From IMG/VR virus record IMGVR_UViG_3300017650_000001, positions 39,621 to 103,620 of that record: DNA of 64,000 bases. One strand, written 5' to 3'. The notes below the pieces were generated by a model, which saw nothing but the letters and a program-made list of their open reading frames with translations, ran no database searches and was not told where the DNA came from. The stretch is from a virus. Position numbers and translations under genes: made by a program. Below are positions 37,039 through 45,468 of the stretch, one piece after another. Each line of letters begins with the position of its first letter. Position 1 is the stretch's first letter.

Positions 37039-38619
37039 TTAGCTCTTCGCGAACTCGGCCATAATTGCCGGAACCGATGTATCGAAACCAGAAACGTCGA
37101 GCATTCCCGGATCGTTCGGATCTGCAATACTGAAGTTCGTTGCAGCCATACCAACAACGATAAGCTTTGCATTGATTCCCGTAGCCTTGCGGTAGTCTAC
37201 AAGAGCACGAGACGGATGTACACGACCGGCGTAAGTCTCATTGTCGGTCATGACAACGAAGACGTCAACGTTCAAGCCCTGTTCACGAGCGTAGACCATA
37301 GGCAACGAACAATCGGTTGATCCGAAGTTGTTGTCATGAGCCTTCTTCGTGGCTGCCACAAGAGAATCACTTGTATTGATCTTGAGATCACGGAATTGAT
37401 TTGCGAAACCCATGACATGGGTACTCGGTTCCGTATTCAAAGATACAAGTGACAATGCTGCGGTAGCTTCGCAGTAGCTGACGTTCGAATTCGCCATCGA
37501 TGACGACATTGAACCCGAAACGTCCAAGGCAAACAAGAAACGCTTGCCTGTCGGCTGCACGTTCTTGAACGCCTTGTAGAACGCCTTGTCCAGCGCTGCA
37601 ACGATCGGCTGCGACGGAGTCCAGGAATTCCCACCGCGGAAACCACGGCCGGAATTGTAGGTCTTCAGCGCAACCAAGATGTTGAACGGATGCAAGCGTG
37701 ACTTGCGGATCACGTTCTCGTCGCTCAACCGCTGCACAATCAGCGATTCAGCGTCGCTGAGCGGCTTGATCAGACCGATGCGGGTCATATTGGCAAGATT
37801 CCGCATAAGCGCTGTTAGCCCCATCGTCGGTAGCATCGCAGCCCAGTAATCAGGGTCACTGTTGCACTCGGTCGGCAGAGCTTCCCAAGGCAACTTGTAT
37901 TCCTTGATTAGTGCGGTACGGAGCTTCTTGGTCGTCCGTGGATCCATTGCGTTCATGTGTGCCATGACTTGCGGAGGCAACGATGCTTGCGTATGGTCAA
38001 CACCGCGGACCCACTGATAAAGAGCGCGACGCGCTTCGCTGTTGCCAGCATCCGGATGATGCAGCTGATGCACATTCTTGTGCGACCAGCCATTGCGCTC
38101 ACGATACTTGATCATCTGGAACGCGACGTCGTCCACAGACTTGTCATTGTACCACTTACCGATTGCACGATGCAGAGCACGACCACCCTTCCCGCCGCCC
38201 AAAGCCTTGCGAGCTTCGAGGTACTGAAAGAGGTGAGTTGCAGTACGACAGACAGCCGGCAAAGCCGAATGAGCGTACGAGCGTACCTTGACGTCCTTGT
38301 GCGTGCCGCCGATTGCCAATGCGAAGATGGCTGGATCGTTCTTCGGAGCACGGCCTTCCTGCGAAACCGAAACGATCACATCGATCGTCTTGATTGGATT
38401 CTCGTCGAAACACTCCTGAACACAACGTGCATTTTCGCGCGTCAGGTCAGCAGCCTTCTGGTAATAGGTGTTGGAGTCACTTCCAAGGATCAGGAAGCGG
38501 TTGAGGCGGGACCAGATATCGATCGCATAGACGTAGCCGCCGGCGTTGTTCTTTACCTGATTCTTGGTAAGCGGCTGAGTCTGCGGAACTGGCGTAGAGA
38601 TAAGTGATGCATACTTCAT
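37039..38619 (-). CDS. rsr: Ro60/Rsr TROVE-domain RNA-binding protein
   Basis: QVKNNAGGYV, RLNRFLILGS..TYY, KYRER.GWSH, ALMRNL, SRLHPF, vWA LDVSGSM, GSTDCSLPM, TDNET, DPGMLDVSGFD. Confidence 0.96.
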   Translation of the reverse strand: MKYASLISTPVPQTQPLTKNQVKNNAGGYVYAIDIWSRLNRFLILGSDSNTYYQKAADLTRENARCVQECFDENPIKTIDVIVSVSQEGRAPKNDPAIFALAIGGTHKDVKVRSYAHSALPAVCRTATHLFQYLEARKALGGGKGGRALHRAIGKWYNDKSVDDVAFQMIKYRERNGWSHKNVHQLHHPDAGNSEARRALYQWVRGVDHTQASLPPQVMAHMNAMDPRTTKKLRTALIKEYKLPWEALPTECNSDPDYWAAMLPTMGLTALMRNLANMTRIGLIKPLSDAESLIVQRLSDENVIRKSRLHPFNILVALKTYNSGRGFRGGNSWTPSQPIVAALDKAFYKAFKNVQPTGKRFLFALDVSGSMSSSMANSNVSYCEATAALSLVSLNTEPSTHVMGFANQFRDLKINTSDSLVAATKKAHDNNFGSTDCSLPMVYAREQGLNVDVFVVMTDNETYAGRVHPSRALVDYRKATGINAKLIVVGMAATNFSIADPNDPGMLDVSGFDTSVPAIMAEFAKS

Positions 38620-38646: not shown

Positions 38647-38710
38647 GCCTGAGCATAAAGGTCGTAGATCGGGTATATTTTGCCGATAACCGAACTACTG
38701 CAACTCAGGC
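38647..38710 (-). ncRNA. Y RNA-like gene Y1 (minimal, no tRNA module)
   Basis: GCCTGAG-TTG..GTAG-TTCGGTTATC..CGATCTAC..TATG-CTCAGGC; shared scaffold, immediately upstream of ro60. Confidence 0.75.
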
Positions 38711-38721
38711 GACTTCAAGCT

Positions 38722-38824
38722 GCTGAACGTGATTTTGGCATCGGATAAGCTCCCATTTGAGCAGTAATTCCATTCGGAACCACTCGGAGTCGAACCAAGA
38801 TAACCGATAACCATTCAATTCAGC
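38722..38824 (-). ncRNA. YrlA-like Y RNA Y2 (permuted T-AS-D tRNA module)
   Basis: GCTGAA stem, TCGGTTATC, T arm CTTGG-TTCGACT-CCGAG, loop-closed acceptor TGGTTCC-GAAT-GGAATTA, D arm GCTC-AAATGG-GAGC. Confidence 0.8.
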
Positions 38825-38827
38825 GTA

Positions 38828-38991
38828 AGGAGTGTCTTACTAGATTGAGCATGAAATTGAAAATTCGCGTTTAGAGTTGGATTCGAACCAACGTCTCTAG
38901 TCCAAGACTAGCGCACTAACCACTATGCTACCCGTTCAGTTTTGGCGAACGATAACGAAATTTCAGCAACTCAATCTAATAAGACACTCCT
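38828..38991 (-). ncRNA. Y RNA-like gene Y3 (non-permuted D-anticodon-T module)
   Basis: About 22-bp terminal stem AGGAGTGTCTTA.TAGATTGAG, TTCGTTATC, then D arm, CTAGT-CTTGG-ACTAG hairpin, T arm GTTGG-TTCGAAT-CCAAC. Confidence 0.75.
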
Positions 38992-39017
38992 CAGTTTGTA
39001 GCTCACCAAATGGAGAC

Positions 39018-39158
39018 TTGCACGAGCATAAAGGGCGAAGATCGATGTTTGACGTGCTACCATTACACTACAGGCCCGTAAATGTTGGACCCGATGGGAT
39101 TCGAACCCATTCCGCCAGCTTTCAATGCTGATAACCGAACTTCAGTCAACTCGTACAA
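39018..39158 (-). ncRNA. YrlA-like Y RNA Y4
   Basis: TTGTACGAG/CTCGTGCAA stem, GAAGTTCGGTTATC, T arm ATGGG-TTCGAAT-CCCAT, acceptor CGGGTCC-AACATTTAC-GGGCCTG, D arm GTGT-AATGGT-AGCAC. Confidence 0.85.
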
Positions 39159-39167
39159 ATATTCCAG

Positions 39168-39238
39168 AAGGTGAGCGTAAGTGTCGGCAATTGGTGGCAT
39201 CATTAACAGTGATAACCAAAAGCCTTTCAACTCACCCT
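39168..39238 (-). ncRNA. Y RNA-like gene Y5 (minimal)
   Basis: AGGGTGAG-TTG..GGC-TTTTGGTTATC..CCAATTGCC..TACG-CTCACCTT; GCGTATG motif just upstream. Confidence 0.7.
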
Positions 39239-39262: not shown

Positions 39263-39466
39263 CTAGTGTGCTCCCAAAATCTTTTTGAGATTCGTGAGCG
39301 CATGAACGGCGCAGCGATCGTTAACAAAAGTCGCGAGATGCTTGGTCAACTTCTTGACCTTGTTCTTCTCGCGACGATTGGTATTCTTGTATCGCGAACA
39401 GAAGTCAGCATTGCGACCGTGTTTGCGATTCTTCTTCGAACTCTTGGCCTTGTGCAGACCAGACAT
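39263..39466 (-). CDS. Small basic protein
   Basis: GAGG RBS, Lys/Arg-rich. Confidence 0.6.
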   Translation of the reverse strand: MSGLHKAKSSKKNRKHGRNADFCSRYKNTNRREKNKVKKLTKHLATFVNDRCAVHALTNLKKILGAH

Positions 39467-39626: not shown

Positions 39627-39698
39627 TGGCACCGGTGGAAGGATTCGAACCCTCTAGGCGAAGTTTTGGAGACCTGCCTGCATCCAATGCTCACCGAT
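39627..39698 (-). tRNA. trnW: tRNA-Trp(CCA)
   Basis: Loop CTCCAAA, T arm, encoded CCA; short D arm. Confidence 0.8.
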
Positions 39699-39701
39699 AA
39701 T

Positions 39702-39778
39702 TGGTACTGACGTAGTGATTCGAACACTATGCTCCCGGTTCACAGCCGGACCGCCCATTGCCATCGAGCATCGTCAGC
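39702..39778 (-). tRNA. trnH: tRNA-His(GTG), no G-1, A73
   Basis: TCCGG-CTGTGAA-CCGGG; ends CGTCAGT-A-CCA. Confidence 0.9.
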
Positions 39779-39782
39779 ATAT

Positions 39783-39853
39783 TGGTCGCTCTGGGTGGGG
39801 ACGATCCACCCTATCAGCCTTATGAGAGCCGACTCCTCGCCGGAGGCAGAGCG
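39783..39853 (-). tRNA. tRNA-CAT (Met or Ile2)
   Basis: CGGCT-CTCATAA-GGCTG; T loop ATCGTCC; CCA. Confidence 0.8.
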
Positions 39854-39854
39854 A

Positions 39855-40187
39855 TTATTGTTTTGGGTTTATTGCCCAATCGTACCCACGTTCAACAGCG
39901 ATGCGATTCATGCGCTGTCTATCTGATAAGTGCGTGTAACCCTGTGGGCTGATGAGCATCTGACCACGCTTGAATGCAGTACCATCAGGATGCGTACCAC
40001 TTGAAGAGACTATGACTTGATATTCACCCTCTCCGATGATGGCTTGGAGGTAGTCCCAAGCTTCGGGTGTGAAGGTAGCTGGCCAATCTTGATATCGCCA
40101 TCCAGCAGCTTTCAAATCAGGAGGGACTAAAGCTTCCTGTTCTGCCCCTAGCAGACTATTTAACAAGTTTGACAATTCAAACAACAT
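39855..40187 (-). CDS. Hypothetical protein in the tRNA array
   Basis: GAGGA RBS; fills the inter-tRNA gap. Confidence 0.65.
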   Translation of the reverse strand: MLFELSNLLNSLLGAEQEALVPPDLKAAGWRYQDWPATFTPEAWDYLQAIIGEGEYQVIVSSSGTHPDGTAFKRGQMLISPQGYTHLSDRQRMNRIAVERGYDWAINPKQ

Positions 40188-40201
40188 AAGTTCCTCTTTA
40201 T

Positions 40202-40277
40202 TGGCAGGGGATACAGGAATCGAACCTGTTCAATGGGGGAGTCAAAGTCCCCCGCCTTCCCATCTGGCTCATCCCCC
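40202..40277 (-). tRNA. trnQ: tRNA-Gln(TTG)
   Basis: GGGGA-CTTTGAC-TCCCC; CCA. Confidence 0.9.
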
Positions 40278-40282
40278 GTAAA

Positions 40283-40357
40283 TGGTGCTCCGTGACGGTT
40301 TCGATCCGTCTTCCCCGATTTGAAGGACCGGGATCCTAGCCACTAGACGAACGGAGC
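40283..40357 (-). tRNA. trnE: tRNA-Glu(TTC) with C33
   Basis: Glu-type D arm GTCTAGTGGCTAGGA; CCGGT-CCTTCAA-ATCGG. Confidence 0.85.
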
Positions 40358-40362
40358 GTAAA

Positions 40363-40436
40363 TGGTGCGGGCTACGAGAATCGAACTCGTGACTCCTCGT
40401 TGGAAGCGAGGGATTTTACCATTAAACTAAGCACGC
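40363..40436 (-). tRNA. trnG: tRNA-Gly(TCC)
   Basis: CCTCG-CTTCCAA-CGAGG; CCA. Confidence 0.9.
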
Positions 40437-40437
40437 A

Positions 40438-40523
40438 TGGCGGTGAGTTGAGAGCACGATTCTCACTCCTTTCGGAGCCCTTCGTTTAGCAAACGATGAC
40501 AGGTCCCACCTGCTTAACTCACC
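40438..40523 (-). tRNA. trnS: tRNA-Ser(GCT)
   Basis: Loop TTGCTAA, long variable arm, G73, CCA. Confidence 0.85.
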
Positions 40524-40753
40524 TAATTTCTATTAGTTAGTCCTTTATAGGTCCGTCTACAGGCTGATTCAGCAGCTTGTAACGATTTGAATGGATTCCC
40601 ATCAATAGGTATAGCCATTCTGCCAATGTGCTCTACAGATTTCCAAGATGCATAAAAACCATCAGAATCTTGGGATATCAGAAATTGGTATCCCTTTATA
40701 GAGCACCCATATAATGGCATGTCCATAAAATGGGCCAAAAACTCAAAGTTCAT
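40523..40753 (-). CDS. Hypothetical protein in the tRNA array
   Basis: Fills the gap between tRNAs; F.SL.AAE.AC phage motif. Confidence 0.6.
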   Translation of the reverse strand: MNFEFLAHFMDMPLYGCSIKGYQFLISQDSDGFYASWKSVEHIGRMAIPIDGNPFKSLQAAESACRRTYKGLTNRN

Positions 40754-40754
40754 A

Positions 40755-40833
40755 TGGCGCTCCTGGAAGGACTTGAACCTCCATAGTTTCCAGTTACGGT
40801 ACTCTGCTTAGGAGGCAGAGCCGGTACAGGAGC
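40755..40833 (-). tRNA. trnR: tRNA-Arg(CCT), non-canonical (no D arm; D-loop-like segment after the anticodon arm)
   Basis: GCTCCTG-TACCGG-CTCTGC-CTCCTAA-GCAGAG-TACCG-TAACTGGAA-ACTAT-T arm-CAGGAGC-G-CCA. Confidence 0.75.
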
Positions 40834-40971
40834 TAAGCAGCTTGAACAGGTGTAGTCAATTTCTTCCGGGCCAAATTCATTCAGGGGTACAAACCTCGTC
40901 ATATGGAGGTCTTCCCATCGCTTGAATAAGTTACATTCACAGCATCTGTTCATGTTAACACATACGCTAAA

Positions 40972-41053
40972 TGGCACCCCGAGCAGGATTCGAACCCGCG
41001 TTTTCAGCTCCTCTACAGATAACTGCTTAGAAGGCAGAACTGGCTACCGGGGC
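40972..41053 (-). tRNA. trnR: tRNA-Arg(TCT), non-canonical
   Basis: GCCCCGG-TAGC-CAG..CTGC-CTTCTAA-GCAG..CTG-TAGAGGA-GC..T arm-G-CCA. Confidence 0.75.
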
Positions 41054-41057
41054 AAAT

Positions 41058-41132
41058 TGGAGGTGTGGGCGGGAGTCTAACCCGCCTATCGCAGTTTTGC
41101 AGACTGGCCCATAAACGCTCTGGCACCACACC
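41058..41132 (-). tRNA. trnC: tRNA-Cys(GCA)
   Basis: Loop CTGCAAA, U73, CCA. Confidence 0.85.
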
Positions 41133-41137
41133 GTAAA

Positions 41138-41212
41138 TGGCTACCCCTGCATGAGTTGAACATGCCTAACCAGTTTCAGAGACTGGCGCCTATACCGCTC
41201 GGCCAAGGGGCA
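41138..41212 (-). tRNA. trnQ: tRNA-Gln(CTG)
   Basis: CCAGT-CTCTGAA-ACTGG; U1-A72; CCA. Confidence 0.9.
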
Positions 41213-41218
41213 ATGAAA

Positions 41219-41293
41219 TGGTCAGGGTAGGGAGTTCCGCCTTCCCACCTCTAGTTCCCGAAACTAGTGCTCTTCTACACGAGCTTTACCCTG
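41219..41293 (-). tRNA. trnP: tRNA-Pro(CGG), aberrant T loop
   Basis: CTAGT-TTCGGGA-ACTAG; C1-G72, A73; CCA. Confidence 0.75.
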
Positions 41294-41301
41294 TTAAATT
41301 C

Positions 41302-41399
41302 TGGTCTTGATAGAGGACTCGACCACGCGCTACCCACCGCAGACTAACACGTTATCCATGCGTCCGCGCCAAAGCCTTGTCCGTCGGCCTCTATCAAGA
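41302..41399 (-). ncRNA. CCA-terminated tRNA-like RNA without a recognisable anticodon arm
   Basis: 12-bp terminal helix TCTTGATAGAGG/CCTCTATCAAGA followed by CCA. Confidence 0.5.
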
Positions 41400-41400
41400 A

Positions 41401-41485
41401 TGGTACCCACGAGGCGAGTCGAACGCCTATTTGCAGCTTCCAGTTACGGTTCCACTGATTCGTAGTCAGGGCCGGCTACGTGGGC
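41401..41485 (-). tRNA. trnR: tRNA-Arg(ACG), non-canonical
   Basis: GCCCACG-TAGC-CGG-CCCTGA-CTACGAA-TCAGTGG-AA-CCG-TAACTGGAA-GC..T arm-A-CCA. Confidence 0.78.
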
Positions 41486-41492
41486 AAAATTC

Positions 41493-41628
41493 TTTGTACG
41501 AGCATAAGGGTCGAAGATCGGTATGGGACCGGAGTTCTACCATTGAACTATCAACGACGCAGCCGTTGAGTTGGATTCGAACCAACATATCCAGTTTGGG
41601 GTAACCAAACTTCTACAACTCGTACAAA
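41493..41628 (-). ncRNA. YrlA-like Y RNA Y6 embedded in the tRNA array
   Basis: TTTGTACGAG/CTCGTACAAA stem as in Y4, GAAGTTTGGTTACC, T arm GTTGG-TTCGAAT-CCAAC, closed acceptor TCAACGGC-TGC-GTCGTTGA, D arm GTTC-AATGGTA-GAAC. Confidence 0.85.
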
Positions 41629-41630
41629 CT

Positions 41631-41705
41631 TGGTGCTGCATAGGGGTTTCGATCCCCTTTCATCTGATTGAGAATCAGACATCCTAGCCACTAGACGAAT
41701 GCAGC
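41631..41705 (-). tRNA. trnE: tRNA-Glu(CTC)
   Basis: TCTGA-TTCTCAA-TCAGA; CCA. Confidence 0.9.
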
Positions 41706-41709
41706 AAAT

Positions 41710-41788
41710 TGGCTCCCAGTCGCGGGATCGAACCGCGCTAATCAGTGGTTAACAGCCACGTCCATGCACCAAGCTCGGATTACTGGGA
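41710..41788 (-). tRNA. trnN: tRNA-Asn(GTT)
   Basis: Loop CTGTTAA; G73; CCA. Confidence 0.85.
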
Positions 41789-41794
41789 ATAAAA

Positions 41795-41866
41795 TGGTGG
41801 AGACAGAGGGTGTTGATCCCTCCCCGCCAATCTTGCAAGGATTAGCTGCGCCCCGGCGCTGTCCCC
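41795..41866 (-). tRNA. trnA: tRNA-Ala(TGC)
   Basis: Loop CTTGCAA; G3-U70; CCA. Confidence 0.85.
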
Positions 41867-41871
41867 ATAAA

Positions 41872-41947
41872 TGGTGCCTAAGCTCCGTTCTGCCCGGAGT
41901 CCTCTAGTTCTTCAGACTAGCGCTTCTACTAAGTTAGCTTCTTAGGC
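41872..41947 (-). tRNA. trnF: tRNA-Phe(GAA)
   Basis: CTAGT-CTGAAGA-ACTAG; T loop GGCAGAA; CCA. Confidence 0.82.
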
Positions 41948-42016
41948 ATGATTTCTGAGCATTCCCAATTACGGAGGTTGCTCCTATCCGGTACCTGCTT
42001 TTCAGCGTTCATGAAA

Positions 42017-42090
42017 TGGTGCGGGCACGGGGAGTCGAACCCCGGCTGGAAGTGTGGCACACTTCCCGACTTCCGTAATCTTTTACCCGC
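42017..42090 (-). tRNA. trnG: tRNA-Gly(GCC)
   Basis: GAAGT-GTGCCAC-ACTTC; CCA. Confidence 0.85.
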
Positions 42091-42095
42091 ATAAA

Positions 42096-42187
42096 TGGTG
42101 GGAAGTGGGATGAGTTGAACACCTTGCCACATAGGGACCTGATTTACAGTCAGGCGACAGAACCGTCCGTCCTTATTAGCACTTCCC
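42096..42187 (-). tRNA. trnY: tRNA-Tyr(GTA), extended acceptor/D connector
   Basis: CCTGA-CTGTAAA-TCAGG; CCA. Confidence 0.8.
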
Positions 42188-42283
42188 ATGAATTAAATTG
42201 CCGGTGTACACGCCTTCACTATAGAACAATAGATTCAGTTCTGCAGAACATCCTCTAGCTACAGTCCATCGACCCGGCAAACT

Positions 42284-42365
42284 TGGGAGCGGGAGGTGGA
42301 TTTGAACCACCGTCTACTGGTTATGAGCCAGTCAAGAGGCCTGTTTACCGCTTCTCCATCCCGCA
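42284..42365 (-). tRNA. tRNA-CAT, initiator-like
   Basis: TGCGGGATGGAGAAGCGG 5' end, 1-72 mismatch, ACTGG-CTCATAA-CCAGT. Confidence 0.78.
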
Positions 42366-42555
42366 CAAAAACGTTGCAGGGCTTTTCATCTCCCATGCTC
42401 ATTCATCAGTACATCCGTGAGTGAATGGAAACACGCTGGTTGGGCTTGAGTACCAGCGTAAGTGCAGTAGTGTAGATATGCGATCATTCTACCTTACCCA
42501 ACTCGTTAGGATCGCCCTCGGAGTGACTACTGCAAAAGCTACATACGCAACTAAA

Positions 42556-42643
42556 TGGCGGAGAGCTGAGGAGTCGAACCCCTAACGGTTTCCCGTTCCA
42601 CGGTTTTCAAGACCGCTGACACACCACTGCGTCTTAACTCTCC
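42556..42643 (-). tRNA. trnS: tRNA-Ser(TGA)
   Basis: GCGGT-CTTGAAA-ACCGT, long variable arm, G73, CCA. Confidence 0.9.
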
Positions 42644-42648
42644 AAACT

Positions 42649-42729
42649 TGGCGACCACGGCAGGATTCGAACCCGCATTTACATCCGGTTACCTTGATCT
42701 CCGTTCGAAGCGGAGTGGGATACGTGGTC
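42649..42729 (-). tRNA. trnR: tRNA-Arg(TCG), non-canonical
   Basis: GACCACG-TATCCCA-CTCCG-CTTCGAA-CGGAG-ATCAAGG-TAACCGGA-TGTAAAT-T arm-G-CCA. Confidence 0.75.
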
Positions 42730-42910
42730 AAAATAGGTGTCGTCAGATGACTACTCTGACAGAGGTTGTAAGGCTGCCTAGCCAACTCCGACCTCTCCGC
42801 CTTTTATAGTCGTTTCCCTTACTAACGACCAGTTGTACTAGTATTCTGATCGTTTTCATTCGAGGCGCATCTAGCGGGAATCGAACCCTCTAGCGACATA
42901 GTCACATACG

Positions 42911-43261
42911 CTACTTCTTTCCATTGTTAGGGAAATACTTTGCCATTGTGACCTTTTGTATCAGACTGTCGTCCTCAACAATTCCAGGCTTGGTCAACGT
43001 GCAGTTATCTAGCGCTTGTTCAAGTGCCAGATATGCGTTTCCCAAATCGGGTGTTGTTGGTGATACGAAAAGGACTTCAAGCTCTATCGGATGTCCAATC
43101 GGCAAGTTGCGACCAATTGATGTCCGCTTAACTGCCTCGTAAATGAACTTCCGGTACTGCTGAATGACCTTGATATGCATCCGACGATGCGGAGCATCAT
43201 GGATCCAAAGTTGCAACAAAGGCGGATCGTACAATGTGTGATACTTTGCGATAACCTTCAT
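42911..43261 (-). CDS. RusA-like resolvase fold, degenerate
   Basis: PIELEVLF..PDLGN....ALD...GIVEDDSLI; AGGGG RBS. Confidence 0.6.
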   Translation of the reverse strand: MKVIAKYHTLYDPPLLQLWIHDAPHRRMHIKVIQQYRKFIYEAVKRTSIGRNLPIGHPIELEVLFVSPTTPDLGNAYLALEQALDNCTLTKPGIVEDDSLIQKVTMAKYFPNNGKK

Positions 43262-43274
43262 TGCAAACCCCTAT

Positions 43275-43350
43275 TGGTACCCGCTCGCGGAATCGAACCG
43301 CGTCATAAGACTGTTATGAGCAGTCGGCCGTCCCACCTGGCTCAGCGGGC
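43275..43350 (-). tRNA. trnM: tRNA-Met(CAT)
   Basis: GACTG-CTCATAA-CAGTC; CCA. Confidence 0.85.
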
Positions 43351-43452
43351 AAAATGGTGGCGGTCACGACCTCACAGTCCACCGCCGCTGCTAACTGAGC
43401 CGTCACTCAGTGCAGGTATAGGGAGCATGTTAGCGTCCTAACGGTCCCTAGC

Positions 43453-43529
43453 TGGTCTAGGTGGCAGGATTCGAACCCGCGATCCCCTGTACCCAAAACA
43501 GGTGCGATACCAGACTTCGCTACACCTAG
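43453..43529 (-). tRNA. trnP: tRNA-Pro(TGG)
   Basis: CCTGT-TTTGGGT-ACAGG; CCA. Confidence 0.92.
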
Positions 43530-43535
43530 ATAAAA

Positions 43536-43610
43536 TGGCGCCCCATAGCGGTTCCGACCCGCTTTCTCTCGATCGACAGTCGAGGATTTTAGCCACTAAA
43601 CTAATGAGGC
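43536..43610 (-). tRNA. trnD: tRNA-Asp(GTC)
   Basis: CTCGA-CTGTCGA-TCGAG; G73; CCA. Confidence 0.85.
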
Positions 43611-43614
43611 AAAT

Positions 43615-43689
43615 TGGTAGATCCTCGGGGAATCGAACCCCGCCCTCATGGGTTAAGAGGCCAGCGCACTACCACTATGCTAAGGATCT
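43615..43689 (-). tRNA. trnK: tRNA-Lys(CTT)
   Basis: Loop CTCTTAA; C31/C39 mismatch; CCA. Confidence 0.85.
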
Positions 43690-43694
43690 GTAAT

Positions 43695-43769
43695 TGGTGA
43701 ACCGCCACGGTACTGCCCCGTGTTCTCATGGGTTAAAAGGCCAGCGTGCTACTTTCCTACTCGCGGTCC
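43695..43769 (-). tRNA. trnK: tRNA-Lys(TTT)
   Basis: Loop CTTTTAA; C31/C39 mismatch; T loop GGCAGTA; CCA. Confidence 0.78.
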
Positions 43770-43771
43770 GA

Positions 43772-44272
43772 TTAGGACTCGCGTTTCATGTGCTTCGCTA
43801 GAGCAGCTTCACCCTTTTCAGCGATTCGTCGCAGCGTTTCCATATCCTGCTTCGAAACGCGGTGTACGCCATCAGGAAGCAGATTGTCTGTGTGGTCAGC
43901 TGTCACAAGCACGTCTCGTGCCTTCAGCAAGAGCTCCATCTGCTCCTCCGTTTCACAAGTGTAATCAACGTAAATCTTTCCAAACCATTCACCCACAAGA
44001 GCGTGCAGCGCGTTGCGGCTAGCACTCTTTCTCCCGGGTCGGACAAGGCGAATATCCAGTCCATAGAACAGTTTCAAACTAACCAAAGGACCGTGATCAT
44101 GACGTCCATTTGTCATCTTTGACAAACTAAGATCGACAGGGCGACCTGGCGCAGCTAGGAGCGCATCGTATATTTCACGAGTACGCGTTCCTTCACGCGG
44201 CTCTAATTGCAATTCTTGCAACTTCTGCCCGTTCTTACGGCGCTTGATTTGCGTAACTGATAACAACCGCAT
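43772..44272 (-). CDS. Hypothetical protein in the tRNA array
   Basis: AGGA RBS; downstream of a GCGTATG motif; fills the gap. Confidence 0.65.
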   Translation of the reverse strand: MRLLSVTQIKRRKNGQKLQELQLEPREGTRTREIYDALLAAPGRPVDLSLSKMTNGRHDHGPLVSLKLFYGLDIRLVRPGRKSASRNALHALVGEWFGKIYVDYTCETEEQMELLLKARDVLVTADHTDNLLPDGVHRVSKQDMETLRRIAEKGEAALAKHMKRES

Positions 44273-44314
44273 GTAACAATCCTAAGGTAACAATGGCTAC
44301 ATACGCAAGAATTG

Positions 44315-44388
44315 TGGTCCTTCCTCACGGTAACGATCCGTGGTCGCTCGGTTATCAGCCGAATGCTCTACCTTTGAGCTAAGGAAGG
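44315..44388 (-). tRNA. trnI: tRNA-Ile(GAT)
   Basis: TTCGG-CTGATAA-CCGAG; CCA. Confidence 0.88.
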
Positions 44389-44516
44389 GAATTAGTACCT
44401 TGCGCTGCTTCACAGGAGCAACCCTGATTCACGTCACGCTCCATTCCACCGCTATGATCACTCGCTTGTGGTCTAGAACGCCAACCTATCCCATAGGACC
44501 CGGCAGGCAAGGATAA

Positions 44517-44592
44517 TGGTGCGTCTTGGCTGAGTCGAACAGCCGACCTCTTGCGTGTCATGCAAGCGTTCGTTCCGCTGAACTAAAGACGC
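44517..44592 (-). tRNA. trnV: tRNA-Val(GAC)
   Basis: CTTGC-ATGACAC-GCAAG; CCA. Confidence 0.88.
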
Positions 44593-44597
44593 GTAAA

Positions 44598-44673
44598 TGG
44601 TGCTCCTTCCGTGAATCGAACACGGTCAATCGAGGTGTGTAAAACCACTGCCTTCCCATCTGGCGCAAGGAGC
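44598..44673 (-). tRNA. trnV: tRNA-Val(TAC)
   Basis: Loop TTTACAC; CCA. Confidence 0.82.
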
Positions 44674-44684
44674 AAAACTTAGGA

Positions 44685-44865
44685 TTAGCAGCCCTACCGT
44701 TGCTTTCGCATATTGGAGGGAATCGAACCCTCACTTCGGAGTTATCCGCGTTCTCCCATTGAACTACAATACCGGTAGAAGCGTCTACTGAACTCAGTGT
44801 ATATGCGCTATGTAAGGCCTTACATAGCAATACAGGGACCGAGACTTCGACTAACGGACTGCTAA
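44685..44865 (-). ncRNA. Structured RNA with an embedded anticodon-less tRNA module
   Basis: TTAGCAG/CTGCTAA terminal stem; internal D arm GTTC-AATGGGA-GAAC, CGGA-TAAC-TCCG, T arm GAGGG-TTCGATT-CCCTC; no CCA. Confidence 0.6.
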
Positions 44866-44867
44866 CT

Positions 44868-44952
44868 TGGTGTCGACGCGGGGATTTGAACCCCGAAAGC
44901 TACCGATTTTAAGCCGGCATCGTGTGCCTATTCCGAATTAAGCCACGTCGAC
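44868..44952 (-). tRNA. trnL: tRNA-Leu(TAA), short variable loop, long connector
   Basis: CCGG-CTTAAAA-TCGG; A73; CCA. Confidence 0.8.
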
Positions 44953-44957
44953 AAAAT

Positions 44958-45033
44958 TGGTACGCGTCCGGGGACTTGAACCCCGACTGTGCTCCTTTTG
45001 AGAGAGTTGCCTCTACCGTTGGGCTAGACGCGC
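44958..45033 (-). tRNA. trnL: tRNA-Leu(CAA), short variable loop
   Basis: Loop CTCAAAA; CCA. Confidence 0.85.
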
Positions 45034-45039
45034 ATAAGA

Positions 45040-45124
45040 TGGTACGGTCGGGGAGACTCGAACTCCCAAAACCACGGAGTCTAAATCCGCAAGCTGTGCC
45101 AATTCGCTACAAGGTCACGACCGC
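45040..45124 (-). tRNA. trnL: tRNA-Leu(TAG), short variable loop, long connector
   Basis: GCGGA-TTTAGAC-TCCGT; CCA. Confidence 0.8.
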
Positions 45125-45129
45125 ATAAA

Positions 45130-45203
45130 TGGTGCTCTCTACTGGTTACGATCCAGTGTCTACGCTTTACCAAAGCGCTATTCTGCCATTGAACTAAGAG
45201 AGC
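45130..45203 (-). tRNA. trnT: tRNA-Thr(GGT)
   Basis: GCGCT-TTGGTAA-AGCGT; CCA. Confidence 0.88.
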
Positions 45204-45208
45204 GTCAA

Positions 45209-45283
45209 TGGTGCTCCATGGAAGAATCGAACTCCCGAACCCGGGTTACAAATCCGGACCTTTGCCACTAAGGATAATGGAGC
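45209..45283 (-). tRNA. trnT: tRNA-Thr(TGT)
   Basis: Loop TTTGTAA; CCA. Confidence 0.82.
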
Positions 45284-45396
45284 ATTAAAGGCTTTCCCCT
45301 TGTGAGAATTGAACTCACATTCCGCTGAAACTAGCTAAGAATCGCGTGTGGTCGCTATCCACCAAATCCACCAGGAGGGGCTTAACTTGTTCTTTG

Positions 45397-45468
45397 TGCT
45401 GCTTCGGTGAATCGAACACCGGACATCCTCTTTACGAAAGAGGCGGTCTGCCACTGACCTAAAGCAGC
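45397..45468 (-). tRNA. trnT: tRNA-Thr(CGT), CCA not encoded
   Basis: CCTCT-TTCGTAA-AGAGG; acceptor extended by flanking TTGTTCTTTG/CAAAGAACAA. Confidence 0.85.

What the first reader, a model, noticed from the sequence alone, without database searches (positions are those of the whole stretch)
38828..38991. Y3: Y-RNA scaffold carrying a non-permuted tRNA body with an exposed anticodon-like hairpin
Seen: order is D arm, CTAGT-CTTGG-ACTAG hairpin, T arm. The acceptor stem is cut to about 3 bp and replaced by the Y scaffold, which ends in an unusually long ~22-bp helix. Established: in YrlA the Ro stem replaces the anticodon arm, which is the opposite arrangement. Inference: a new Y-RNA architecture that presents an anticodon loop and elbow but cannot be charged, which suits a decoy for anticodon nucleases or modification enzymes.
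Basis: partly seen in the sequence, partly recalled or inferred. Interest (0 to 1): 0.72.

Follow-up and report, generated by a model that had tools for sequence, protein, structure and literature searches.

The report
Ro60 partner RNA with whole-tRNA mimic
A 164-base RNA gene just upstream of a phage's Ro60 gene folds into a complete tRNA look-alike mounted on the stem that probably docks Ro60. Relatives beside other Ro60 genes keep the same fold, so it is a real but rare variant of the known tRNA-mimicking Y RNAs and not a dead tRNA gene.

Summary
There is a 22-23-bp closing helix, a handle shared with four neighbouring Y-like RNAs, and then D arm, capped hairpin and T arm in tRNA order. The RNA lies about 210 nt upstream of an intact Ro60 gene.

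Its loop starts with GCCA. Together with a 2-bp stub it makes a 7-bp acceptor stem. The tRNA body is therefore complete, and the handle enters through the acceptor 3' strand.

A covariance model found the same design beside Ro60 genes in 12 other loci: phage contigs, metagenome contigs and one Chloroflexota MAG. In the 13-row alignment 39 of 48 pairs show compensatory changes. This rules out a decaying pseudogene.

The "anticodon" loop is 3-9 nt long and not conserved, so the anticodon-nuclease decoy idea is not supported. The D/T elbow and purine-CCA are conserved.

My best reading is a Ro60-bound Y RNA that shows a tRNA shape to tRNA-handling proteins. RNase P might open it at the CCA loop.

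The closest known RNAs are YrlA (opposite wiring) and Deinococcus Yrn1 (same arm order, cruder). Earlier notes of this scan describe the same design in other phages. I class it as a new variant of a known kind.

The parts
38828..38991 (-). Whole Y3 RNA (164 nt), one of five tandem Y-like modules upstream of Ro60
   Evidence: MFE -66.4 kcal/mol, z -7.6. Model R1/R2 self-hit, plus homologues in other Ro60 loci.
38969..38991 (-). Closing helix, 5' strand (RNA positions 1-23)
   Evidence: Inverted repeat of 22 nt, 95% complementary; paired in the MFE fold. The helix exists in all homologues, but its length (about 8-23 bp) is not conserved.
38828..38850 (-). Closing helix, 3' strand (RNA positions 142-164)
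38951..38972 (-). Handle, 5' strand: GAG, then a GCUGAA stretch (a C-to-U variant of the published GNCGAA Ro60 motif), then UUCG and UUAUC
   Evidence: The same elements occur in the four neighbouring modules and in all homologues. Motif definition from Chen 2014. Handle helices covary (helices 2-3).
38933..38951 (-). Acceptor hairpin H: 5 bp, with a loop that starts with discriminator G + CCA (38943-38946)
   Evidence: RNAalifold predicts the 5-bp helix independently. Every one of its five pairs shows compensatory changes (helix 4). Purine-CCA follows the 5' strand in 6 of 9 hairpin-bearing homologues.
38931..38932 (-). Acceptor stub, 5' side (GG), pairing with 38874-38875 (UC)
   Evidence: Rfam tRNA alignment, model positions 6-7/64-65. 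92% of cells paired; one of the two pairs has 7 double changes (helix 5).
38913..38928 (-). D arm (4-bp stem, 8-nt loop with GG), preceded by U8 A9
   Evidence: 100% paired in the alignment (helix 6).
38897..38911 (-). Anticodon-arm mimic: 5-bp stem with a 5-nt loop (or 6 bp with a 3-nt loop)
   Evidence: All 5 pairs covary (helix 7). Loop length is 3-9 nt and the sequence is not conserved.
38876..38892 (-). T arm (5 bp, loop UUCGAAU), preceded by a 4-nt variable region at 38893-38896
   Evidence: 100% paired (helix 8).
38851..38875 (-). Stub 3' side (UC), UAAAC joiner and handle 3' strand ending AUGCUC
   Evidence: The UAAAC joiner and the following CGA-type strand are shared with the YrlA-like neighbours and with homologues.
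37039..38619 (-). Ro60 gene (526 aa), the presumed protein partner
   Evidence: Pfam vWA_Ro60 5.7e-62 and TROVE 3.2e-36; PHROG 850 RNA-binding protein 1.4e-85. A terminator-like site follows at 37002-36975.
38647..39238 (-). Context: the array of five Y-like modules. Bare handles at 38647-38710 and 39168-39238; T-acceptor-D (YrlA-like) modules at 38722-38824 and 39016-39160; Y3 between them.
   Evidence: Folds. Rfam YrlA gives 22.8 bits at 39047-39117. No terminator-like site lies between modules; a promoter-like site lies at 39612-39583.

Best explanation
Y3 is a phage Y RNA, a small non-coding partner of the phage's own Ro60 protein.

Its two ends pair into a long clamp. Above the clamp sits the handle that all five RNAs of the array share, and this handle probably docks Ro60 (inferred from the published YrlA motif).

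The handle carries a complete four-armed tRNA mimic. Its parts are a 7-bp acceptor stem (a 5-bp hairpin whose loop begins with GCCA, plus 2 bp made with the strand after the T arm), a D arm, a capped anticodon-arm helix, a short variable region and a T arm. The nucleotides needed for the D/T elbow are present.

The handle strands leave through the acceptor 3' strand. Ro60 would therefore sit beside the acceptor/T side. In the YrlA-type neighbours it would sit at the anticodon end.

The most likely role (inferred) is to show a tRNA shape to host tRNA-handling proteins, or to PNPase, and so tether them to Ro60 or hold them away. The very stable fold would also protect the RNA.

It cannot decode. 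RNase P may open the CCA loop, which would give a two-piece RNA held together by the clamp.
For: Shown:
- Fold stability and anatomy.
- An intact Ro60 gene about 210 nt downstream on the same strand.
- Handle elements shared with four neighbouring modules.
- The same design next to Ro60 genes, on the same strand, in L100, L089, L051/L052, L102/L104, L025 (two copies), L031/L027, L035, L041, L110, L167 (two copies) and L263.
- In the 13-row alignment 90.6% of cells are paired and 39 of 48 pairs show compensatory changes, against 13-22 in slid controls and 0 of 500 shuffles.
- RNAalifold recovers the clamp, the handle, the 5-bp acceptor hairpin and the D, AC and T arms.
- The 5 + 2 bp rule and purine-CCA recur although the stem sequences differ.
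- A pattern scan of all viral contigs gave 22 matches. The only three with a perfect hairpin were Ro60-linked.
- The phage's own tRNA genes encode NCCA followed by a 4-6-nt spacer, the same layout as the hairpin loop.

From papers:
- YrlA is bound by Rsr, modified by TruB and DusA, and M. smegmatis YrlA is cut by RNase P (PMC4201824).
- The Ro60 and Y-like RNAs of Thermus phage phiLo bind host PNPase in vitro (PMC12135203).
Against: - There are no expression, binding or processing data for this RNA or any homologue.
- The window's handle has GCUGAA/GUUGAA where the published Ro60 motif has GNCGAA.
- Neither the Rfam YrlA model nor the Deinococcus Y RNA model scores Y3.
- The 2-bp stub is too short for thermodynamic prediction and rests on covariation alone.
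- The alignments were fitted to my own model, which inflates pair counts.
- Four of the 13 homologues lack the acceptor hairpin and two of the nine that have it lack CCA, so that part is not universal.
- The effector protein is unknown even for well-studied YrlA.
Confidence: 0.72

Rival explanations
1. Anticodon-nuclease or modification-enzyme decoy: the exposed anticodon-like hairpin soaks up enzymes that attack or modify tRNA anticodon loops.
For: An anticodon-arm helix of tRNA-like length is conserved and exposed. Phages with large tRNA arrays are thought to counter tRNA-targeting defences (general knowledge).
Against: The loop is 5 nt here (3 nt if the stem closes further). In homologues it is 3-9 nt with no conserved bases; several are GNRA-type or 3-nt caps, and only one or two of 13 have 7 nt. 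Anticodon nucleases read specific 7-nt loops (general knowledge).
Confidence: 0.06
2. Precursor of a two-piece, tRNA-ended Y RNA: RNase P cuts 5' of acceptor position 1 inside the hairpin loop, and trimming leaves a free purine-CCA 3' end. The long clamp keeps the halves together. The product could meet the CCA-adding enzyme, a synthetase or EF-Tu.
For: The acceptor is exactly 7 bp (5 + 2) and stacks on a 5-bp T stem. A purine discriminator plus CCA is retained in 6 of 9 hairpin-bearing homologues while the stems diverged. Position +1 is G in 8 of 9. The loop copies the NCCA-spacer junctions that are processed in the phage's tRNA array. Precedent: M. smegmatis YrlA (PMC4201824). The clamp is unusually long here.
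Against: The handle branches out of the acceptor between base pairs 5 and 6, which may block RNase P. Some homologues have no hairpin or no CCA. S. Typhimurium YrlA and Yrn1 are not cleaved (PMC4201824). The phage encodes no CCA-adding enzyme, RtcB or RNA ligase. CCA could be an inherited remnant of a tRNA-tRNA junction.
Confidence: 0.25
3. Decaying tRNA gene caught between an inverted repeat, or merely an RNase III processing hairpin in the Ro60 leader, with no function of the tRNA-like part.
For: ARAGORN calls no tRNA. A 23-bp near-perfect helix is long enough for RNase III (general knowledge). No promoter or terminator of its own was detected.
Against: Homologues in distant Ro60 lineages (Ro60 identity 32-51%) keep every helix through compensatory changes. 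The body is at most 49/66 identical to any tRNA of the same phage. The handle motifs are shared with the neighbouring Y-like RNAs.
Confidence: 0.04

Closest known systems
YrlA (Y RNA-like A; Rfam RF02553; Chen et al. 2014, PMC4201824; crystal structure in Wang et al. 2018, bioRxiv 10.1101/312249)
   Same: Encoded next to Ro60 on the same strand. It has a terminal stem and a 5' handle motif followed by a YUAY-type joiner (UUAUC here), and a tRNA-like domain with D and T arms and a loop-closed acceptor stem. YrlA-like modules co-occur with Y3-type modules in the same loci.
   Different: The YrlA order is T arm, acceptor hairpin, D arm; the handle replaces the anticodon loop and there is no anticodon arm. 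The Y3 order is acceptor hairpin, D, capped anticodon arm, T, and the handle enters through the acceptor 3' strand. RF02553 gives no hit on Y3 at E <= 10.
Deinococcus radiodurans Yrn1 (Rfam RF01053 Deinococcus_Y_RNA; Chen et al. 2000, 2013, 2014)
   Same: Chen 2014 drew it with D-like, anticodon-like (5-bp stem, 6-nt loop) and T elements in tRNA order on a Ro60-binding stem, the same orientation as Y3. A Trueperaceae MAG (L226) has a weak module of this order upstream of Ro60.
   Different: In Yrn1 the D arm is doubtful (no dihydrouridine was found), and there is no variable region and no acceptor hairpin with CCA. Y3 has all of these. RF01053 does not match Y3; its only match in the phage is 22 bits on a tRNA-like gene elsewhere. 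Chen 2014 found no Yrn1 orthologues.
M. smegmatis YrlA (Chen et al. 2014)
   Same: It has a 7-bp loop-closed acceptor stem. It was shown to be cut by RNase P and to receive CCA, giving a Y RNA with a tRNA-like end.
   Different: It has YrlA wiring, and its CCA is added, not encoded. No processing data exist for Y3.
Circularly permuted tRNA genes of Cyanidioschyzon merolae, and permuted two-piece tmRNA (general knowledge; Soma 2007 as cited in 10.1101/312249)
   Same: The 3' acceptor strand lies upstream of the 5' acceptor strand, joined by a short linker that is opened by tRNA end-processing enzymes.
   Different: Those become functional tRNA or tmRNA. Y3 has no usable anticodon loop, and its break point is occupied by a conserved Ro60-type handle.

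Membership tests
YrlA (RF02553) | Encoded within a few kb of a Ro60/Rsr gene on the same strand | tested here: met
   Ro60 lies at 37039-38619(-), and Y3 ends about 210 nt upstream of its start.
YrlA (RF02553) | 5' GNCGAAN0-1G motif, followed by YUAY before the tRNA-like domain | tested here: inconclusive
   UUAUC is present. The motif reads GCUGAA here (C to U at the third position), and the neighbouring modules have GUUGAA. Homologues have GCCGAA or GUCGAA.
YrlA (RF02553) | Order T arm, acceptor hairpin, D arm, with the handle in place of the anticodon loop | tested here: not met
   The order is acceptor hairpin, D, capped AC arm, T.
YrlA (RF02553) | Score at or above the Rfam gathering threshold (69 bits) | tested here: not met
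   No RF02553 hit on Y3 at E <= 10. The neighbouring module scores 22.8 bits.
Deinococcus Y RNA / Yrn1 (RF01053) | D-like, anticodon-like and T elements in tRNA order on a Ro60-binding stem | tested here: met
   description of Yrn1 in PMC4201824.
Deinococcus Y RNA / Yrn1 (RF01053) | Sequence/structure match to the Rfam model (gathering score 80 bits) | tested here: not met
   No match on Y3 at E <= 1. The only match in the phage is 22.2 bits, at window 44711-44771.
Y RNA (functional definition) | Bound and stabilised by Ro60 | not testable with these tools
   Needs co-immunoprecipitation or EMSA with the phage Ro60.
tRNA (RF00005) | Cloverleaf with a continuous 7-bp acceptor stem and free 5' and 3' ends | tested here: not met
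   The Rfam match is local (model 6-65, 41.3 bits). The acceptor 3' strand is split between an upstream hairpin and a 2-nt stub. ARAGORN makes no call.
tRNA (RF00005) | 7-nt anticodon loop | tested here: not met
   The loop is 5 nt (or 3 nt) here and 3-9 nt in homologues.
tRNA (RF00005) | Elbow nucleotides (U8, A14, G18 G19, G15/C48, T-loop UUCRA) | tested here: met
   Read directly from the Rfam alignment and the alignment.

The most novel reading that the evidence does not exclude
Y3-type RNAs are opened by RNase P at the purine-CCA loop. This would give a two-piece, Ro60-bound RNA with a true tRNA acceptor end (5'-phosphate at position 1, 3'-CCA). Such an end could be recognised by the CCA-adding enzyme, charged, or bound by EF-Tu, and would physically couple a phage Ro60 particle to the tRNA or translation machinery.
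Probability: 0.15. Interest if true: 0.8.

Novelty: new variant of a known kind. Interest (0 to 1): 0.5.

Why it matters
What the tRNA-like domain of bacterial Y RNAs is for has been open since 2014. This phage carries, side by side on one handle, tRNA mimics wired in two ways: Ro60 at the anticodon end in the YrlA-like modules, and Ro60 at the acceptor side in Y3. That gives a natural pair for asking which face of the tRNA shape matters and which host proteins bind it. The conserved 5 + 2 bp acceptor stem with an encoded purine-CCA also gives a concrete prediction about processing that can be tested. Finally, it shows that current Rfam models miss a recurrent class of Ro60-linked RNAs.

Tried and rejected
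- An exact search for the capped hairpin in viral contigs gave only four chance hits, in coding or unrelated DNA.
- blastn of the whole Y array against GenBank phages found only a tRNA-like match in Aeromonas phages.
- My first degenerate pattern was off by one base. Its 17 hits all lacked hairpin complementarity and Ro60, so they served as a null.
- The corrected pattern gave 22 hits, and only the three with a perfect hairpin were Ro60-linked.
- Model hits below about 45 bits were ordinary tRNAs with flanks (ARAGORN overlap), and I excluded them.
- L001, the closest contig with upstream sequence (Ro60 66% identical), has six Y-like modules but no Y3-type module.
- I looked for RtcB, a CCA-adding enzyme and an RNA ligase in the phage and found none.
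- Neighbouring ORFs gave no informative Pfam or PHROG hits.
- Two reviews (PMC6047535, PMC10870794) were not held, so I could not check whether they mention this wiring.

Full report
**What is there.** The window is the right-hand 64 kb of a 103,620-bp phage record with direct terminal repeats. All relevant features lie on the minus strand.
- More than 24 tRNA genes lie at 39702-45468.
- A promoter-like site lies at 39612-39583.
- A 67-aa basic ORF follows.
- Five stem-closed RNAs lie between 39238 and 38647.
- A 526-aa Ro60 gene lies at 38619-37039, with Pfam vWA_Ro60 5.7e-62 and TROVE 3.2e-36.
- A strong terminator-like hairpin lies at 37002-36975.

No terminator-like site separates the small RNAs, so they may be cut out of one transcript (inference).

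**The observation.** The flagged RNA runs from 38991 to 38828.
- Its ends form a 22-nt inverted repeat that is 95% complementary as DNA. In RNA this is 23 bp with two G.U pairs.
- The MFE is -66.4 kcal/mol, against -37.2 +/- 3.8 for shuffles: z = -7.6, with 0 of 200 shuffles as stable.
- The Rfam tRNA model matches 38932-38874 at 41.3 bits (gathering score 29), but only over model positions 6-65 and with two bases where the model expects four in the anticodon loop.
- ARAGORN makes no call.

U8, A9, A14, G18 G19, a G15/C48 pair and the T-loop UUCGAAU are all in place (read).

Between the handle and the D arm lies a 5-bp hairpin (38951-38933).
- Its 5' strand is followed by G, then CCA, then a 5-nt linker.
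- Its 3' strand continues without a gap into two G residues that pair with the two bases after the T stem, and then into U8-A9.

Five plus two base pairs make a 7-bp acceptor stem with a discriminator and CCA. Its 3' strand is interrupted between tRNA positions 67 and 68 by the handle and clamp. The body is thus a complete four-armed tRNA mimic. It is circularly permuted at the acceptor 3' strand and is not a cloverleaf with its acceptor cut off.

The phage's own tRNA genes end in NCCA followed by a 4-6-nt spacer and the next tRNA. The hairpin loop has the layout of such a tRNA-tRNA junction. This idea was prompted by note e1-6005909 on the neighbouring module. The body is at most 49/66 identical to any tRNA of the phage, so it is not a recent copy.

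**The handle.** All five modules share:
- a terminal stem ending in GAG/CUC;
- a GUUGAA- or GCUGAA-type stretch;
- UUCGG or UUCG followed by UUAUC;
- on the 3' side, a CGA-type strand and AUGCUC.

The UAAAC-type joiner on the 3' side is seen in Y3 and in the YrlA-like module at 39016-39160.

In related loci the first stretch reads GCCGAA or GUCGAA. That is the GNCGAAN0-1G motif which Chen et al. 2014 proposed as the Rsr/Ro60 contact, and UUAUC fits their YUAY. The window's version is a C-to-U variant.

Two neighbours, at 38722-38824 and 39016-39160, carry T arm, acceptor hairpin and D arm, which is YrlA wiring. Rfam YrlA scores one of them at only 22.8 bits against a threshold of 69. Two others are bare handles.

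**Homologues.** I collected Ro60 loci from viral contigs, metagenomes and genomes (220 loci in all). I searched them with a covariance model of Y3 (R1) and then with a second-round model (R2). After removing ordinary tRNAs with flanks, the same design was found at:

| Locus | Score with R2 |
|---|---|
| L051 / L052 | 106 / 100 bits |
| L089 | 105 bits |
| L102 = L104 | 101 bits |
| L100 | 94 bits |
| L025 (two copies) | 80 and 67 bits |
| L031 / L027 | 67 bits |
| L167 (Aggregatilineales MAG, two copies, no tRNA genes nearby) | 67 and 60 bits |
| L035 | 60 bits |
| L110 | 52 bits |
| L041 | 45 bits |

All lie on the Ro60 strand, upstream or downstream, usually with YrlA-like modules in the same locus.

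A degenerate pattern scan of all 2.9 million viral contigs gave 22 matches. Only three have a perfectly paired hairpin, and all three are Ro60-linked: the L100 and L089 contigs, and a new 147-kb contig, L263, whose Ro60 is 32% identical. A mis-specified version of the pattern gave 17 matches with no pairing and no Ro60, which serves as a null.

**Covariation.** In the 13-row alignment A5:
- 90.6% of cells form standard pairs, against 33-44% when partners are slid;
- 39 of 48 pairs show changes on both sides, against 13-22 when slid;
- 0 of 500 shuffles reach any of the measures.

All five pairs of the acceptor hairpin, one of the two stub pairs (7 double changes) and all five anticodon-arm pairs covary. 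RNAalifold, predicting on its own, recovers the clamp, the handle helices, the 5-bp hairpin and the D, AC and T arms.

Two caveats apply. The alignment was fitted to my model, and the rows are related.

**What is and is not conserved.**
- *Acceptor hairpin.* Nine of 13 rows have it. In most of them it is 5 bp followed by a 2-bp stub. In L025b, and possibly L167a, the upstream strand pairs with all 7 nt.
- *CCA.* A purine plus CCA follows the hairpin's 5' strand in six rows. One row has CCU, and two have no CCA.
- *Position +1.* It is G in eight of nine rows.
- *Rows without the hairpin.* In four rows the acceptor stub runs straight into the handle.
- *Anticodon arm.* It is always a 4-7-bp helix, but its loop is 3, 3, 3, 4, 4, 4, 5, 5, 6, 6, 7, 8 or 9 nt with no common sequence.
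- *Clamp length.* It varies from about 8 to 23 bp. The long clamp is peculiar to this phage.

**Interpretation.** The conserved parts are the handle, the elbow and the acceptor, not the anticodon loop.
- This speaks against the proposed decoy for anticodon nucleases.
- It fits a Y RNA that displays the tRNA shape, as YrlA does. YrlA is modified by TruB and DusA, co-purifies with PNPase, and in M. smegmatis is cut by RNase P and CCA-tailed (PMC4201824).
- A phage Ro60 with Y-like RNAs binds host PNPase in vitro (PMC12135203).
- Because the handle leaves from the acceptor side, Ro60 would sit at the opposite end of the L-shape from its position in YrlA. The phage thus offers the tRNA shape in two orientations (inference).
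- The retained purine-CCA, the exact 7-bp stem and the junction-like loop make RNase P opening plausible but unproven. I put it at about 25%.
- The phage has no RtcB, CCA-adding enzyme or RNA ligase, so any processing would be done by host enzymes.

**Comparison with what is known.**
- Published YrlA has the opposite wiring and no anticodon arm.
- D. radiodurans Yrn1 was drawn by Chen et al. with D-like, anticodon-like (6-nt loop) and T elements in this order. However, it has a doubtful D arm, no variable region, no acceptor hairpin and no known orthologues.
- Rfam's Deinococcus_Y_RNA model does not match Y3.
- I found no paper describing a Y RNA with a full cloverleaf whose acceptor stem is split by the handle. 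Two reviews were not available to me.

Earlier notes of this scan (e1-5705623, e1-5958324) report whole tRNA cloverleaves with capped anticodon loops nested in Y scaffolds of other phages. The design has therefore been seen before in this scan on other DNA. I did not re-test those loci.

**Verdict.** This is a real, conserved, Ro60-linked RNA and a new variant of the known tRNA-mimicking Y RNAs. The decoy mechanism is not supported.

Noticed in passing
window 39630-39699 (-): A tRNA-like gene that ARAGORN does not call. By eye it has an 8-bp acceptor stem, a short D arm, a 7-nt anticodon loop with CCA (Trp) and an encoded 3' CCA. Rfam gives only tRNA-Sec at 16.4 bits. An 83%-identical stretch occurs in Aeromonas phages AhSzq-1 and AhSzw-1.
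   Followed up: partly
window 39263-39466 (-): A 67-aa, very basic ORF between the tRNA array and the Y-RNA array, just downstream of the only promoter-like site (39612-39583). It has only a weak PHROG hit of unknown function.
   Followed up: partly
window 44708-44773, 41875-41947, 44871-44952 (-): Three Rfam tRNA hits (36-44 bits) that ARAGORN does not call. The first is also the phage's only (weak) match to the Deinococcus Y RNA model.
   Followed up: no
L226 2548-2935 (Trueperaceae MAG): Three Y-like modules upstream of Ro60 in a Deinococcota genome: one YrlA-wired, one bare handle, and one AT-rich module with D-like, 7-nt-loop anticodon-like and T arms in tRNA order plus an extra hairpin. 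The last may be a Yrn1 relative.
   Followed up: partly
L025 550-695 and 821-962: Two Y3-type modules in tandem in one metagenome contig, followed by two YrlA-like modules. The second Y3-type copy has a full 7-bp upstream acceptor strand with GCCA and a 7-nt loop reading like a Trp anticodon loop.
   Followed up: partly
L001 3015-3745: The closest contig with upstream sequence (Ro60 66% identical) has six tandem Y-like modules with a GAGCCC...CGUUC handle. Two are YrlA-wired and none is Y3-type, so the cargo set turns over quickly between related phages.
   Followed up: partly
window 39702-45468 (-): Nearly every tRNA gene of the array encodes its CCA and is followed by a 4-6-nt U/A-rich spacer before the next tRNA.
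   Followed up: yes
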